From a virus, in the UHGV virus genome UHGV-0042155: a DNA stretch of 29,839 bases; one strand, 5' to 3'. This document shows, one piece after another, positions 8,672-16,807 of this stretch. The position numbers were made by a program, and so were the translations under genes. The stretch's first letter is position 1. Every line of letters begins with the position of its first letter. The notes beneath the pieces were generated by a model. The model was not told where the DNA came from. It did no database searches and was given only the letters and a program-made list of their open reading frames with translations.

Positions 8672-9081
8672 TTCACCCCTGCTGGTTTGATGGCCTGCAG
8701 TGCATCAACCTCTTTAACGAATCGGTCATGCATCGCGTCCCATTTCTCACACCATTTCTCCATTTCTCGCTTGCGCGCCAGGATACGACGCAGACGGCGA
8801 ACACAACGCTGGTGGGCGGCCAGATACTCAGCCTTTGTTTCCCCGTCTCGCCATACCTCCATATCATCGCGATCAATACGCACTCGCGGGTGACGCTGTG
8901 GAAAACCTGAACGCTCAAAAGCCTCGGTGGTCATGAAGAAAGCCAGATAGCGGATCGCCGTATCGCGGGTGAAGCATTTTTTGACGCGGCCGTGACGGCG
9001 TGCCACGAACAACGGACCTGCCGGGGTATCATGTTGCTGTAATGCCAGGTCGATTGCGCTGGCGATGCGTTTATCAGTCAT
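8668..9081 (-). CDS. hypothetical early-left phage protein (137 aa)
   Basis: Internal start MTDKRIAS... at 9081 preferred over the track's 200-aa version, whose N-terminus is low-complexity and overlaps the upstream gene; ATGA overlap with that gene's stop. Confidence 0.6.
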   Translation of the reverse strand: MTDKRIASAIDLALQQHDTPAGPLFVARRHGRVKKCFTRDTAIRYLAFFMTTEAFERSGFPQRHPRVRIDRDDMEVWRDGETKAEYLAAHQRCVRRLRRILARKREMEKWCEKWDAMHDRFVKEVDALQAIKPAGVK

Positions 9082-11371: not shown

Positions 11372-11400
11372 AATTTAGCAAAATGGTAAAAGCCATGCAA
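11372..11400 (-). promoter_or_regulatory. putative pL promoter with overlapping repressor operator
   Basis: Minus strand reads TTGCAT-N17-TAAATT. The 17-mer at 11374-11390 (tttagcaaaatggtaaa) matches the OR site at 12238-12254 at 15 of 17 positions with both half-sites identical. Confidence 0.5.
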
Positions 11401-11483
11401 ATGATAAATGCTAAATTATTTACTTTTTCTTTTATGTATTTGATAAATAATATAATTATTTATTATTATTCTTCGGTGGGCAT

Positions 11484-11511
11484 AAAAAAACCCACCATCA
11501 GGTCGGGTGGG
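11484..11511 (-). terminator. rho-independent terminator downstream of cI
   Basis: Stem cccacc (11491-11496) / ggtggg (11506-11511) followed on the minus strand by a T7 run (plus-strand A-run 11484-11490). Confidence 0.6.
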
Positions 11512-11529
11512 GGGGGGTAAAGATGGGGG

Positions 11530-12219
11530 TTACAGGGCGGGCATTTCATCATTGTCAACATAACGCGTATGCTTAACAATAGCTGAAACAAAATGCATTT
11601 TCTCGATGCTATCAGGACTTAAGGTGATGGGCCTGTGATCACTGTTTACACTTGAGAATTGATAATCGCCATCGCGAGTTTTACTCATGATTTTTATCAT
11701 GTTATGCCCATCTTTTGTTCGCACAAAAACCTCATCACCTGTATGAACTTGGGTGTTTGGCTCTATGACGACATATTCTCCAGACTGTATGCGTGGCCAC
11801 ATGCTGTCTCCCTTCACTTTCAGCCCATAGGCATCCCTATCCGCGCTGTATATTTGTAGCCATCCAGCGTGGATCTCTAGCATATCGATCATTCCGTCAA
11901 TCCCAAGAATCGCTTCCCCTACAACTGGTACAGCTCCCGGACGGACTGATCCGACATACTCCAACTCGCTTTTAATACTGCCAGGAGCATTGTGTGGACT
12001 ATCCAGCCACCCAAACGGACGATCCAAGGCCTGTTCAATCTTTCTGGCCATTTTGTCCCCTATGTTTCGATGGCTATTGCCCCCAAGCAACTGGCTCAAC
12101 TGGGCAGGGCTTATCCCGCACAATTCTGCGAAAGCTGCTTTTGTCGTATGTCTGTCGCGCTTCAGGAACTCAACAATGAGCTGCTCAAGGTTTGATTTGC
12201 GTATGCTTTTTATGTCCAT
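11530..12219 (-). CDS. CI-like repressor (HTH plus S24 LexA-type peptidase domain)
   Basis: N-terminal HTH (AAFAELCGISPAQLSQLL) and C-terminal S24 motifs (GDSMWP, Lys in NMIKIM); divergent from the cro-like gene across an operator region. Confidence 0.9.
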   Translation of the reverse strand: MDIKSIRKSNLEQLIVEFLKRDRHTTKAAFAELCGISPAQLSQLLGGNSHRNIGDKMARKIEQALDRPFGWLDSPHNAPGSIKSELEYVGSVRPGAVPVVGEAILGIDGMIDMLEIHAGWLQIYSADRDAYGLKVKGDSMWPRIQSGEYVVIEPNTQVHTGDEVFVRTKDGHNMIKIMSKTRDGDYQFSSVNSDHRPITLSPDSIEKMHFVSAIVKHTRYVDNDEMPAL

Positions 12220-12237
12220 GTCAAAATAATCTCATTA

Positions 12238-12305
12238 TTTAGCAATGTGGTAAATACACAAACTGCTAAATGATTATTGCATTTAATTTAGCAAAAAGCT
12301 AAAGT
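12238..12305. promoter_or_regulatory. OR-like operator/promoter region (pR, possible pRM)
   Basis: 17-bp sites tttagcaatgtggtaaa (12238-12254) and the perfect palindrome tttagcaaaaagctaaa (12287-12303), with further TGCTAAA half-sites between them; candidate pR is TTGCAT (12277-12282)-N17-TAAAGT (12300-12305). Confidence 0.55.
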
Positions 12306-12330
12306 TGATTCATTGCAACAGGAGACCGTA

Positions 12331-12558
12331 ATGAACAACCAATTACTTGCTTGGCGTAAGTGCTCAACAAAAGAGCAGTGGGCAGATCTTGCTAAAAAAT
12401 CAGGCACATCTCCGGGATACCTGAATCTCATTGCTTATGGTCATCGCAATGCTTCCCCCAGACTGGCATTGGCGATCGAGAGCGCATCAAAGTCATTCGT
12501 GAATAAGCCAGTTATTACAAAAGAACAGTTGGTTTTCAAGAGCGGTTCTGAGGTGTGA
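12331..12558 (+). CDS. Cro-like HTH regulator
   Basis: First ATG with an AGGAG Shine-Dalgarno (track start 12313 is TTG); small protein divergent from cI. Confidence 0.7.
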   Translation: MNNQLLAWRKCSTKEQWADLAKKSGTSPGYLNLIAYGHRNASPRLALAIESASKSFVNKPVITKEQLVFKSGSEV

Positions 12559-12559
12559 T

Positions 12560-12757
12560 ATGTCGCACTCGATCACTACCGAAAACCAAGTTAAGCCATT
12601 GGATATCGATTATCGCGATCCGCGCGGTGTGATTGTGCATGTCACCGGCTGGAATCGGGATAAACAGCAGGTGTACTTCACCAGGCAGAATTATCCGCAT
12701 GAATGCATGCAGCCTGTCTGGAAGTTTCAAAATTATTTCAGGAGGGTTGTGGAGTGA
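12560..12757 (+). CDS. small early-right protein (65 aa)
   Basis: ORF tightly packed between cro and the replication gene; its stop overlaps the GTG start of the next gene. Confidence 0.5.
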   Translation: MSHSITTENQVKPLDIDYRDPRGVIVHVTGWNRDKQQVYFTRQNYPHECMQPVWKFQNYFRRVVE

Positions 12758-13686
12758 GCAATTTCTTACAGCTCGTTGATCGTCCAATAGCCTTTCAACG
12801 GTCCTTCGTTCGCCTTGGCGTGGGTATTACAGGTGCATTGCTATTGTCACAGATTGTCTATTGGCAGAACCGCATGGAAGGGAATTGGTTCTACAAAACC
12901 CAGACAGATCTCGAAGAAGAGACTGGATTAACGCGTTACGAACAAGAGGGAGCGCGTAAAAAGCTGGTTTCCTGTGGCGTACTGGAAGAAGCAAAACGTG
13001 GCATCCCAGCAAAATTATATTTCAGAGTAAACCAGGAGCGCTTGGAAGAACTTCTACTTGGCGAAAACCAGCATGCAGGTATGGGGAAAACCAACAAACA
13101 AGGATGCGGAATTTCCGCAAACAGTGATGCGGAAAACCAGCATGCAGGTATGGGGAAAACCAACGAGCAGTCATGTGGAAATTCCGCATCCATTCATACA
13201 GTAGATTACCAGGAGACTACACAGAAGATTAATACAGAGAATAAATATCTTGGTGCATCGGCTGAAGCCGACACACCGAAAGTGAAATCTTCAACTGATT
13301 ATTCTCCTGCATTTGAAGAAGCCTGGCAGGCATACCCAAAACGTAGCGGTGGAAATAACAAGCTAAGCGCATTCAAAGCCTGGAACGCACGTATTAAACA
13401 GGGCGTAAAACCAGAGACGATGCTGGAAGGGGTTAAGCGCTACGCAGCTTTCATGGCCTCTGAGGGAAAGATCGGTACTTCGTTCGTCAAGCAGGCGGCG
13501 ACGTTCTTCGGGCCGGATAAACATTTCGATGAACCGTGGCTGGTAGAGACCCAGGAAAACAAAGTCCCTACCCGACAAGACCAGTCTCGCTACGAGTGGT
13601 ACGCAAAGTCTGATGACGGCTCTGCCGAGGTGTTTATCAATCAGTCAGCGATCGATCGCATGAACCGTGGCGGGTATCGCCCATGA
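12754..13686 (+). CDS. putative replication initiator/organiser
   Basis: GTG start at 12754 preceded by AGGAGG (the track's ATG at 12703 overlaps the upstream gene). Sits directly upstream of the primase-helicase and contains internal tandem repeats like ori inside lambda O. Confidence 0.7.
   Translation: MSNFLQLVDRPIAFQRSFVRLGVGITGALLLSQIVYWQNRMEGNWFYKTQTDLEEETGLTRYEQEGARKKLVSCGVLEEAKRGIPAKLYFRVNQERLEELLLGENQHAGMGKTNKQGCGISANSDAENQHAGMGKTNEQSCGNSASIHTVDYQETTQKINTENKYLGASAEADTPKVKSSTDYSPAFEEAWQAYPKRSGGNNKLSAFKAWNARIKQGVKPETMLEGVKRYAAFMASEGKIGTSFVKQAATFFGPDKHFDEPWLVETQENKVPTRQDQSRYEWYAKSDDGSAEVFINQSAIDRMNRGGYRP
13063..13200 (+). repeat. tandem direct repeat (two ~69-bp units) inside the initiator gene; putative ori iterons
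   Basis: Units begin at 13063 and 13132 with an identical 33-nt head gaaaaccagcatgcaggtatggggaaaaccaac; the 8-mer GAAAACCA occurs four times at 23/46/23-bp spacing; encodes a repeated peptide ENQHAGMGKTN. Confidence 0.8.
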
Positions 13687-13789
13687 AAATACTCCTCAAA
13701 CGTCTACTGGTTGCTGGCTATAACCGCGGCTTTTTGCGTGAGGAATTCGTGACTATGTGCTTTATAAAATTCGATTTACGGAGTGTGTG

Positions 13790-15661
13790 ATGACCCCTGC
13801 TGAGTTATCTGAAAAATTGTGGGACAACGCCGAAAGAGTTGCGAAATACCTGCTTCCACGAGGACACCTCGAGGGCAAGGAGTGGTGCGCTGGTAATACC
13901 AATGGTGATGCCGGTAAGAGCCTGAAAATTAATCTCGGTGGTAAGAAGACTTGGGCAGATTTTGCAAGCGGCGACAGCGGAGACCTGCTTGATCTTTGGG
14001 TGCTGGTGCGTAACTGCCAGCTGCACGACGCTATGCGGGAAGCGAAAGAGTTCCTTGGGCTGAAGGACGACGATAACCACTTCGAGGCGAAGAAAAAAAC
14101 CTTCTCACGGCCAACCAAAAAAGGCGTTAAAAAGGCGAGCCATTGCTACGACTACCTCTCTTCCCGTGGCATCACCCGAGAGACAGCTGATCAATTCCGT
14201 GTTTCGGACGCAGTCGTCTGGTACCACGATGAAAACCGCGAAATTCCGGCAGTGGCGTTTCCGTATCTTCGCAACGGTGAGCTTTTGCAGGTAAAGCGAA
14301 TCGGCACTGAACGACCAAATGGCAAAAAGTTGATCATGGCTGAAGCTGATTGCGAGCCATGTCTGTTTGGCTGGCAGGCTATGGACGCGAAAGCTCGCGC
14401 TGTTGTGCTTTGCGAAGGAGAGATTGACTGTATGACCTACTCGCAATTCGGTATCAGTGCTCTATCGGTACCGTTCGGCGGTGGAAAAGGGGCCAAACAG
14501 CAATGGATCGAATACGAGTATCACAACCTCGACCGATTCGAAGAAATTTGGTTAAGCCTCGATAACGATGATGTAGGGCGCGAAGCCGCAAAAGAAATTG
14601 CTCGTCGCCTGGGGGAGCATCGTTGCCGCCTGGTAGAGCTGCCGCACAAAGATATCAATGAATGTCTGACCTCCGGGATGAGCGAGGATGAAATCTGGCA
14701 CTACTTGGGGACCGCTAAATTCTTCGACCCTGATGAACTCTGCTCTGCGGGTGATCTCCTTCAGGAAACACTGGATGCATTCGAGCATCGAGATGTTGGA
14801 TTATTTTCCAGCCCGTGGGATTCGCTGAACAGTAATTTCAAATTCCGCGCCGGAGAGCTGACGCTGGTTAACGGAGTAAACGGCCACGGAAAAACCGAGC
14901 TGGTGGGACATATCGCCGTCAATGCCATGAGCCAGGGAGTCCGGGTATGCATTGCCTCGCTGGAGCTTAAGCCTGGGAAAATGTTGGCTCGTCTTACCCG
15001 GCAAACCATTTGTAGAAAAAACCCAGAACGTACTGAAATCATCATGACTAACGAGTGGTTTTCTGATCGTCTTTGGGTGTTCAAACTCACCGGAACAGCC
15101 AAGGCCGATCGACTGTTGGAAATATTTGCCTATGCCAGACGCCGCTATGGAATCGATCTTTTCGTTATCGACAACTTGGCAAAATGTGGACTCGATGAGG
15201 AGGACTACGGTGGACAAAAAGAATTTATCGATACCCTCTGCGACTTTAAAAACGAGCACAACTGCCATGTTCTGCTGGTAACGCATGCCAGAAAAACAAA
15301 CGAAGCTGCACCAACAGGGAAAATGGATGTTAAAGGCACTGGCGCTTTAACTGACATGCCCGACAACGTTATGGCGGTCTGGCGTAATATCCCGCGCGAA
15401 CTGGCGCAGCGCAAAGCTGAAAGAATGGGGTATGAGAGCCTTGATAAGGACGAACAGACTGCTATCCAAATGCCCGCTTCGATGATCCGCCTGTTGAAAC
15501 AACGTGAAGGGGAAGGCTGGATCGGAGACATAGGGGCTAACTTTGATTCCCGCTCACACCAGTTTATCGAGGGTGATAAAGGGCCCTTCAATTACTTGGC
15601 CGGCAAACAGCAAAGTGAACTTGATATTGAGTGGGAAGCCACCAACGCAACGAGGTATTAA
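13790..15661 (+). CDS. bifunctional primase/helicase (TOPRIM plus DnaB-like RecA-fold)
   Basis: TOPRIM motifs CEGEIDCMT and LDNDDVG; Walker A GVNGHGKTE and Walker B LFVIDNL in the C-terminal half; ATG 13790 with a GGAG Shine-Dalgarno. Confidence 0.85.
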   Translation: MTPAELSEKLWDNAERVAKYLLPRGHLEGKEWCAGNTNGDAGKSLKINLGGKKTWADFASGDSGDLLDLWVLVRNCQLHDAMREAKEFLGLKDDDNHFEAKKKTFSRPTKKGVKKASHCYDYLSSRGITRETADQFRVSDAVVWYHDENREIPAVAFPYLRNGELLQVKRIGTERPNGKKLIMAEADCEPCLFGWQAMDAKARAVVLCEGEIDCMTYSQFGISALSVPFGGGKGAKQQWIEYEYHNLDRFEEIWLSLDNDDVGREAAKEIARRLGEHRCRLVELPHKDINECLTSGMSEDEIWHYLGTAKFFDPDELCSAGDLLQETLDAFEHRDVGLFSSPWDSLNSNFKFRAGELTLVNGVNGHGKTELVGHIAVNAMSQGVRVCIASLELKPGKMLARLTRQTICRKNPERTEIIMTNEWFSDRLWVFKLTGTAKADRLLEIFAYARRRYGIDLFVIDNLAKCGLDEEDYGGQKEFIDTLCDFKNEHNCHVLLVTHARKTNEAAPTGKMDVKGTGALTDMPDNVMAVWRNIPRELAQRKAERMGYESLDKDEQTAIQMPASMIRLLKQREGEGWIGDIGANFDSRSHQFIEGDKGPFNYLAGKQQSELDIEWEATNATRY

Positions 15662-15662
15662 A

Positions 15663-15974
15663 ATGGATCGCCTAATTAGAGAAATGTCGTATCTCTTTAC
15701 CAAGCAGCGTTTTATGGAGCTTCAGGAAACGGCAAAAGACATCGCAATCGGTCATAGTGATTTTCCTGAGTGTTTCGGTCTTATTGCTGACGCCATCGCT
15801 GAATTTGTTGAAGACACTCCTGATGATGAGTGGCGAGAGCATGAAAAAATCCTTATGCACTACGTTGCTATGCGTGTTCTGACGCTGTGGGGTAACGGCG
15901 ATAAAGTGACTGATGTCCAGTGGGCGCACCCTGGCTGGTTTGGCACTGCTGAAAAGGGGGAAACCATTCAATGA
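15663..15974 (+). CDS. hypothetical phage protein (103 aa)
   Basis: ATG 1 nt after the primase-helicase stop; its stop overlaps the Q-like start. Confidence 0.6.
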   Translation: MDRLIREMSYLFTKQRFMELQETAKDIAIGHSDFPECFGLIADAIAEFVEDTPDDEWREHEKILMHYVAMRVLTLWGNGDKVTDVQWAHPGWFGTAEKGETIQ

Positions 15975-16807
15975 AGTTGGAAGCATCACTAAAACACTTT
16001 AGCCCTCAGGGTGTGCACATCAGCGACGACGTGAAAGGAACCTCTCCGGACCGCCTTACAGGAACAGATGTAATGGCGGCAATTGGCACCACCAGCAGCC
16101 GTGCGCGCTTCGGACTGGCGGCGTTCTTCGGTAAAGCGGGAATCAGCAAAACGGATGAACAGCTCGCAGTTCAGGCGCTGGCGCGATATGCGATGGATGT
16201 CGCACCGAAGAATGTTCGCAAAGCAGCTGGTGGGCAGTTCGGATGGTGCATGCAGATGTTGGCACAATTTGCCTTTGCTGATTATTCACGTTCGGCGGCT
16301 ACAAGCGTGACGTGTCACAGCTGCAGTGGTACCGGACGAACAACCCGCGAACAGATTACCCGCAAGGTTTCGTACCCATGGGGTAAAGCTCCATACTGGG
16401 CCTGCCGCTCTCGTGCTGTTCGACCGTCTGACTGGGAGCAGTGGATGGAGGTAACAGAGGTTGTACCGGCGGTCTGTGATGCTTGCGAAGGCAAGGGAAC
16501 GATCAGCGCCCGTTGTCGTTGCGGCGGTAAAGGCGAGGTTCTAGACCGCAAGGCCACAAGCGAGCGCGGCGCGCCGGTGTTTAAAACCTGCGAGCGCTGC
16601 AGCGGAAATGGATTTTCTGCGGTGCCGTCTACCGCAGCCTATAAAGTGATACTGAAGCGCGTTCCGGATCTGCACGTCAGAACATGGACTCGCAACTGGA
16701 AACCGTTTCTTGAGGCGCTGGTAAGCATTTGTCAGCAGGAGGAGGGAAACGCCGCAAGAGAATTTCAATCTGCAACCAGTTTAGGCGAAGAAGGTGACGA
16801 AATTTAG
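15971..16807 (+). CDS. Q-like late antiterminator (zinc-finger type)
   Basis: Three CxxCxGxG motifs (CHSCSGTGR, CDACEGKGT, CERCSGNGF); last gene of the early-right operon, directly upstream of a promoter-plus-terminator pair and the lysis cassette. Confidence 0.7.
   Translation: MKLEASLKHFSPQGVHISDDVKGTSPDRLTGTDVMAAIGTTSSRARFGLAAFFGKAGISKTDEQLAVQALARYAMDVAPKNVRKAAGGQFGWCMQMLAQFAFADYSRSAATSVTCHSCSGTGRTTREQITRKVSYPWGKAPYWACRSRAVRPSDWEQWMEVTEVVPAVCDACEGKGTISARCRCGGKGEVLDRKATSERGAPVFKTCERCSGNGFSAVPSTAAYKVILKRVPDLHVRTWTRNWKPFLEALVSICQQEEGNAAREFQSATSLGEEGDEI

What the first reader, a model, noticed from the sequence alone, without database searches (positions are those of the whole stretch)
13063..13200. 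Iteron-like tandem repeats inside the initiator gene, paired with a primase-helicase fusion instead of O/P
Two roughly 69-bp direct repeats with four copies of GAAAACCA at 23/46/23-bp spacing lie in the middle of the putative initiator gene, where they encode a repeated linker peptide. This is the same architecture as ori-lambda inside gene O. The downstream gene is a TOPRIM primase fused to a DnaB-like helicase rather than a P-type helicase loader, suggesting a host-DnaB-independent replication module.
Basis: partly seen in the sequence, partly recalled or inferred. Interest (0 to 1): 0.45.

Follow-up and report, generated by a model that had tools for sequence, protein, structure and literature searches.

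The report
In-gene replication origin of a prophage
The repeats are real and are very probably the replication origin of a lambda-like E. coli prophage, sitting inside the gene of the protein that binds them; this is a well-known design, seen here with an uncatalogued initiator family and a T7-like primase-helicase.

Summary
Window 13059-13196 holds six head-to-tail 23-bp units (two 69-bp blocks) in the middle of the initiator gene (12754-13686) of a lambdoid prophage of E. coli MS 115-1. Each unit has a 15-bp quasi-palindromic core, TGSGGAAWWYCMRCA.

Directly downstream (13197-13246) lie about four degenerate 11-13-bp repeats (ACAGAGAWTAC type). They form the least stable duplex stretch of the whole early-right operon.

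In 187 related loci, 145 carry a 21-24-bp array at the same place (127 of them exactly 23 bp). The array sequence changes along with the initiator's N-terminal domain. That domain is modelled as a winged helix, closest to RepA_N plasmid initiators.

The next large gene (13790-15661) is a T7 gp4-family primase-helicase. The initiator's last 29 residues follow this partner, not the rest of the initiator.

However, an origin inside the initiator gene is textbook (lambda, P22, pSK41), and lambdoid modules of "O-like protein + primase-helicase" are already described (ES18, epsilon34, g341c). Verdict: a new member of a known kind. The most novel part is the codon-constrained 12-mer repeat, conserved from Staphylococcus to E. 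coli phages.

The parts
12754..13686 (+). Replication initiator gene (310 aa, GTG start overlapping the stop of the DUF4222 gene, AGGAGG 7 nt upstream).
   Evidence: phrog_9773 'replication initiation O-like' 1.3e-49 and phrog_270 3.5e-48. No Pfam or NCBIfam family. RefSeq CDS WP_000064516.1 has the same coordinates.
12754..13062 (+). Coding region of the N-terminal winged-helix domain (aa 1-103), the presumed iteron-binding module.
13059..13196 (.). Six 23-bp iteron-like units (two 69-bp blocks). The 15-bp cores are at 13059-13073, 13082-13096, 13105-13119, 13128-13142, 13151-13165 and 13174-13188.
   Evidence: TRF score 99; register and dyad symmetry. A period of 23 puts successive units in three reading frames. 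The same array is present in phage SaltyDalty, and strain EC2001 has three 69-bp blocks. A 21-24-bp array sits at the same place in 145 of 187 related loci.
13197..13246 (.). A+T-rich, purine-rich stretch of about four degenerate 11-13-bp repeats (TACAGTAGATTAC / CAGGAGACTAC / ACAGAAGATTAA / TACAGAGAATAA). Candidate DNA-unwinding element.
   Evidence: GC is 0.33, the minimum within the genes. The 40-bp window at 13213 is the least stable of 12313-16807 (-43.9 against a mean of -55.7, sd 3.5 kcal/mol). The homologous ACAGAGAWTAC x2-4 arrays occur in distant relatives and show codon-level constraint.
13300..13539 (+). Coding region of the C-terminal domain (about aa 183-262; YSPAFEEAWQAYPKR...FFGPDKHFDEPW).
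   Evidence: 41% identical over aa 2-262 to the initiator of Stx2_12E129_yecE, which has a different tail and different partner genes. Matches phrog_26426, phrog_1701 and phrog_18526.
13597..13683 (+). C-terminal tail (aa 282-310, WYAKSDDGSAEVFINQSAIDRMNRGGYRP). Proposed docking peptide for the primase-helicase.
   Evidence: This is the only segment shared with the otherwise unrelated initiators of phages Fraca, LMessi and CharmingMan, which carry the same primase-helicase (72% identity over 29 aa, E 2e-11). It is absent from close N-domain relatives that lack the primase-helicase, such as L042.
13683..13790 (+). Conserved 35-aa ORF between initiator and primase-helicase (MKILLKRLLVAGYNRGFLREEFVTMCFIKFDLRSV).
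   Evidence: Homologous small ORFs sit at the same position in SaltyDalty, LMessi, CharmingMan and g341c gene 46, which is annotated as similar to ES18 gp60. It is not annotated in the RefSeq record.
13790..15661 (+). T7 gp4-family primase-helicase (623 aa).
   Evidence: Toprim_2, AAA_25 and DnaB_C domains; phrog_239 at 1.2e-146. Matches T7 gp4 structures 5ikn/6n7i/1q57 at E 2e-27 and Twinkle at 8e-16. The TOPRIM acidic residues, Walker A/B and motif H3 are aligned.

Best explanation
This is the replication origin of a lambdoid (Hendrixvirinae-like) prophage, embedded in the linker-coding middle of its own initiator gene.

Proposed mechanism:
1. Dimers of the initiator's N-terminal winged-helix domain bind the six 23-bp-phased, quasi-palindromic iterons (13059-13196). 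They assemble an O-some-like nucleoprotein complex.
2. This complex strains and opens the adjacent A+T-rich 12-mer-repeat stretch (13197-13246).
3. The initiator's C-terminal part, specifically its last 29 residues, recruits the phage's own T7 gp4-like primase-helicase (13790-15661). The conserved 35-aa protein may help. The primase-helicase then unwinds and primes without host DnaB, DnaC or DnaG, and host DNA polymerase III does the synthesis.
4. Early-rightward transcription from the cI/cro control region runs through the origin, as in lambda.

Shown here: the repeat anatomy, its family-wide conservation and co-variation with the N-domain, the low duplex stability, the folds and families of both proteins, and the tail-partner co-variation.

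Inferred, not shown: binding, unwinding, recruitment, and independence from host proteins.
For: Anatomy:
- Six 23-bp units with a 15-bp dyad-symmetric core.
- No comparable array elsewhere in the 29.8-kb window.

DNA-level rather than peptide-level repeat:
- 23 is not a multiple of 3, so the same motif is read as E-N-Q, K-T-N and G-I-S.
- Blocks are gained or lost only in frame-preserving 69-bp steps: two blocks here and in SaltyDalty, three in EC2001 and in the 333-aa variants.

Conservation:
- Of 187 loci encoding the N-domain, 145 have a 21-24-bp array just downstream, and 127 of these are exactly 23 bp.
- Iteron similarity tracks N-domain identity (Spearman 0.73; 0 of 499 Mantel permutations reach it).
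- It decays to the shuffled baseline while the periodic array persists (examples).

Partner independence:
- The same iteron type follows the N-domain into genomes whose next gene is an IstB/DnaC-like ATPase, a DnaB-like helicase or another protein.

Unwinding element:
- GC minimum and least stable duplex of the operon, directly 3' of the iterons.
- In relatives the 12-mer shows strong codon constraint. Thr is ACA/ACT in 112 of 112 cases, against 48% elsewhere. Glu is GAG in 95%, against 46% elsewhere. Fisher tests give 2e-18 and 2e-14.

Proteins:
- RepA_N iterons are semi-palindromes converging on an A-tract (PMC7145576). pSK41 Rep binds boxes placed centrally in its own gene, which encode a dispensable linker (PMC5703833).
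- The primase-helicase has intact TOPRIM and Walker motifs.

Tail:
- Shared only with unrelated initiators that have the same primase-helicase.

Context:
- Order is cI, cro-like, DUF4222, initiator, primase-helicase, Q.
- The same module occurs in isolated phages (SaltyDalty, 85% DNA identity) and in a 37.3-kb circular episome of Enterobacter cloacae with no plasmid replicon typed.
Against: - There is no experimental evidence for this phage or this initiator family. No binding, origin-mapping or replicon data were found.
- Part of the N-domain/iteron correlation is expected from common descent of linked DNA.
- Among 14 close variants, the 15-bp cores are only slightly less variable than the 8-bp spacers (19% against 27% of columns). 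This small sample shows no clear core-specific constraint.
- In this window the 12-mer repeats are degenerate. Only one copy matches ACAGAGAWTAC within two mismatches.
- In the helicase, the position of the T7 gp4 arginine finger (R522) is a lysine, and the N-terminus lacks the Cys4 zinc ribbon of T7 primase. Full gp4-like activity is therefore not guaranteed.
- No sigma-70 consensus promoter was detected upstream by the simple scan.
Confidence: 0.8

Rival explanations
1. The repeats are only a recently duplicated, slippage-prone stretch coding for a disordered linker (a coding VNTR). They have no function as DNA, and the origin lies somewhere else.
For: Copy number varies between strains, two or three 69-bp blocks. 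The encoded peptide lies beyond the folded N-domain, where model confidence collapses after residue 106. Cores are hardly better conserved than spacers among close variants.
Against: The 23-bp sub-period puts the same motif in three reading frames. A 21-24-bp array sits at the same place in 145 of 187 related loci even though the sequences have diverged to the shuffled baseline. Units are dyad-symmetric. The array is always followed by the low-stability 12-mer stretch. No other iteron-like array exists in the window.
Confidence: 0.06
2. The array is a genuine initiator-binding site, but it serves mainly for control: autoregulation of the early-right transcript, or copy-number control by handcuffing. 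Unwinding and helicase loading would occur at another site, for example inside or next to the primase-helicase gene as in P4 or N15.
For: Iterons in plasmids commonly have both roles. Primase-helicase proteins of P4 and N15 recognise their own origins (my own knowledge, not tested here). The N-terminal 115 residues of the primase-helicase are of unknown function.
Against: No repeat array or marked A+T-rich stretch occurs in or near 13790-15661. The least stable DNA of the operon abuts the iterons. The same iteron + 12-mer unit is kept in relatives that use quite different helicases or loaders, which fits a self-contained origin.
Confidence: 0.08
3. The repeats are bound by another protein, either a host factor or the primase-helicase itself, and not by the product of the gene that contains them.
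For: No binding data exist. The 12-mer is conserved across hosts and across initiator specificities, so it cannot be recognised by the variable specificity determinants of the N-domain.
Against: Iteron sequence follows the N-domain and not the downstream partner. Phages with the same primase-helicase but a different initiator (Fraca, LMessi, CharmingMan, g341c) lack these units. Where such phages have arrays, they are different ones; for example g341c has lambda-type ATCCCTCAAAACAGGGG x4 with a true lambda-O N-domain. No DnaA box lies within 3.8 kb.
Confidence: 0.05

Closest known systems
ori-lambda inside gene O, with the O/P replication module of lambda and Stx phages
   Same: Iterons with imperfect dyad symmetry lie in the middle of the initiator gene and are followed by an A+T-rich unwinding region. 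The module sits in the early-right operon after cro. The iterons encode a linker between an N-terminal origin-binding domain and a C-terminal recruiting domain. Iteron number varies between phages: 4 in lambda, 6 in Stx phages with 13 extra residues in O (PMC7466680).
   Different: The N-domain is not a PF04492 member. There are six (or nine) 23-bp units with a different core. There is no P-type loader, and the partner is a primase-helicase. No cII gene lies between cro and the initiator.
ES18 / epsilon34 / g341c-type lambdoid module (O-like protein, about 35-aa ORF, primase-helicase)
   Same: Same gene order, homologous small ORF, and a primase-helicase 60% identical. This module is described in PMC2629481 and PMC10307801 as an alternative to O/P and to P22 18/12.
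   Different: In those phages the origin-binding N-domain is of the lambda-O type, 94% identical to lambda gpO residues 17-148 (PMC2629481), with lambda-type iterons. Here a different N-domain and iteron cassette, and a different C-domain, are attached. The C-terminal tail also differs from that of g341c.
RepA_N plasmid initiators (pSK41 / pTZ2162 Rep; Vibrio PLE RepA)
   Same: The three-part design is the same. An N-terminal winged helix of about 105-120 aa binds semi-palindromic A-tract-centred boxes placed centrally in its own gene. A central linker is encoded by the origin. A C-terminal domain recruits a replisome protein (PMC5703833, PMC7145576). These are the best structural matches to the N-domain model.
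   Different: There is no sequence match to PF06970. The context is a phage rather than a plasmid. The C-domain is unrelated. Here the proposed partner is a phage primase-helicase rather than host DnaG.
P22 gene 18 / gene 12 and phage L (initiator with in-gene iterons plus a phage DnaB-type helicase)
   Same: A lambdoid initiator with its own iterons inside its coding region, paired with a phage-encoded replicative helicase instead of a loader (PMC8022706).
   Different: The helicase here is fused to a TOPRIM primase and belongs to the gp4 family, not the DnaB family proper. The initiator families also differ.
T7 gp4 primase-helicase
   Same: A TOPRIM RNA-polymerase domain and an SF4 helicase domain in one chain, about 26.5% identical over residues 120-533. 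Catalytic acidic residues and Walker motifs are aligned.
   Different: T7 starts replication from transcription-dependent origins with no initiator or iterons (my own knowledge). The protein here lacks the Cys4 zinc ribbon and has Lys at the arginine-finger position.

Membership tests
Lambda O-type initiator/origin (Pfam PF04492 Phage_rep_O; ori-lambda) | N-terminal domain matches the Phage_rep_O profile | tested here: not met
   No Pfam hit at E<=0.01 for the full protein, nor at E<=1 for seven family N-domains. The positive control, g341c O, scores 1.5e-35. Pairwise BLASTP against g341c O finds no convincing alignment.
Lambda O-type initiator/origin (Pfam PF04492 Phage_rep_O; ori-lambda) | Four or more direct repeats of about 19-23 bp with internal dyad symmetry, in the middle of the initiator gene | tested here: met
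   Six 23-bp units at 13059-13196, in codons 103-148 of 310. Dyad matches are 7/7 and 6/7 in units 3 and 6, and 2-4/7 in the others.
Lambda O-type initiator/origin (Pfam PF04492 Phage_rep_O; ori-lambda) | A+T-rich, easily melted region directly after the iterons | tested here: met
   13197-13246 is 68% A+T and 66% purine on the top strand. It holds the least stable 40-bp window of 12313-16807.
Lambda O-type initiator/origin (Pfam PF04492 Phage_rep_O; ori-lambda) | Partner is a P-type loader that hijacks host DnaB | tested here: not met
   The next genes are a 35-aa ORF and a gp4-family primase-helicase. No P homologue is present.
Lambda O-type initiator/origin (Pfam PF04492 Phage_rep_O; ori-lambda) | Initiator binds the iterons, and replication starts there | not testable with these tools
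   Needs EMSA or footprinting and origin mapping. Only comparative support is available.
RepA_N initiators (Pfam PF06970; pSK41 Rep) | Sequence match to the RepA_N profile | tested here: not met
   No Pfam hit.
RepA_N initiators (Pfam PF06970; pSK41 Rep) | N-terminal winged-helix domain with the RepA_N/DnaD-N fold | tested here: inconclusive
RepA_N initiators (Pfam PF06970; pSK41 Rep) | Binding boxes are semi-palindromic direct repeats centred on an A/T tract, located centrally in the rep gene and encoding a linker | tested here: met
   The core is TGCGG-AAWWY-CMGCA, and the array lies between the N- and C-domains. The definition is taken from PMC7145576 and PMC5703833.
T7 gp4-type primase-helicase (partner protein) | TOPRIM primase and SF4 helicase domains in one polypeptide, with catalytic motifs | tested here: met
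   Toprim_2 at residues 206-293 and AAA_25/DnaB_C at 352-592. E 2.4e-27 to 5ikn. EGEID, DNDD, KD, GHGKT, VIDN and TH all align to the T7 motifs. The arginine-finger position is Lys.
T7 gp4-type primase-helicase (partner protein) | N-terminal Cys4 zinc-binding domain | tested here: not met
   Residues 1-115 contain only two cysteines and no CxxC pair, read from the translation. The alignment to gp4 starts at residue 116-119.
ES18-type lambdoid replication module | Order of initiator, about 35-aa ORF, then primase-helicase, after cro in the early-right operon | tested here: met
   The primase-helicase is 60% identical to g341c gene 47, which is annotated as similar to ES18 gp61.
ES18-type lambdoid replication module | Origin-binding domain of lambda-O specificity | tested here: not met
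   The N-domain family and iterons are different. The ES18/epsilon34 description comes from PMC2629481.

The most novel reading that the evidence does not exclude
The short ACAGAGAWTAC repeat that follows the iterons may be a sequence-specific origin element shared by a very large phage initiator superfamily, and apparently undescribed. It would be the site where the initiator captures or opens single strands and where the helicase is loaded.

It stays constant while the iterons, hosts (Staphylococcus, Burkholderia, Acinetobacter, Vibrio, enterobacteria; contig GC 0.29-0.64) and helicase partners all change. It is kept by selection on the DNA itself inside a coding region.

A corollary is that RepA_N/DnaD-like initiators with in-gene origins are common in phages of Gram-negative bacteria, where RepA_N has been considered rare (PMC7145576).
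Probability: 0.35. Interest if true: 0.55.

Novelty: new member of a known kind. Interest (0 to 1): 0.3.

Why it matters
- It assigns a function to a widespread 'hypothetical protein' (WP_000064516.1; near-identical copies in several hundred Enterobacter, Citrobacter, Salmonella, Klebsiella and E. coli contigs) and to the DNA inside its gene.
- It illustrates how lambdoid replication modules are built from three exchangeable pieces: the N-domain with its iterons, the C-domain, and a short tail matched to the helicase partner.
- It gives a compact candidate replicon, about 3.4 kb, that may not need host DnaB, DnaC or DnaG.
- The conserved 12-mer offers a simple, testable handle on how this class of initiators opens DNA.
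- None of this overturns current understanding.

Tried and rejected
- **Extra GAAAACCA copies at 12530(-) and 12581(+).** I considered them as auxiliary initiator sites and rejected them. The 12581 copy lies in the DUF4222 gene, is also present in phages with an unrelated initiator (Fraca, LMessi, CharmingMan), and is absent from L038-L042, which have the same iterons. The 12530 copy is in only 2 of the 28 distinct loci listed.
- **DnaA boxes (TTWTNCACA).** One match in the window, at 8897, fewer than expected by chance.
- **Promoter and terminator scan of 11400-16000.** Nothing useful. The one 'terminator' in the array is simply palindromic iteron 3.
- **Curated families.** Pfam, NCBIfam and PDB sequence searches of the initiator found no family.
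- **Core versus spacer variability among 14 close variants.** Only a weak difference, 0.19 against 0.27, so I did not use it as evidence.
- **Reading frame of the 12-mer.** I expected it to vary, but it is in frame 0 (T-E-x-T) in 78 of 80 contigs (one search shows the same tendency). The frame argument therefore fails for the 12-mer, and codon usage was tested instead.
- **First co-variation script.** It used wrong domain ends and found almost no arrays. It was corrected.
- **Literature search for the 12-mer as a string.** It returned only unrelated primers. This covers open-access text only.
- **Weaver et al. 2009** (PMC2652615) is not held.
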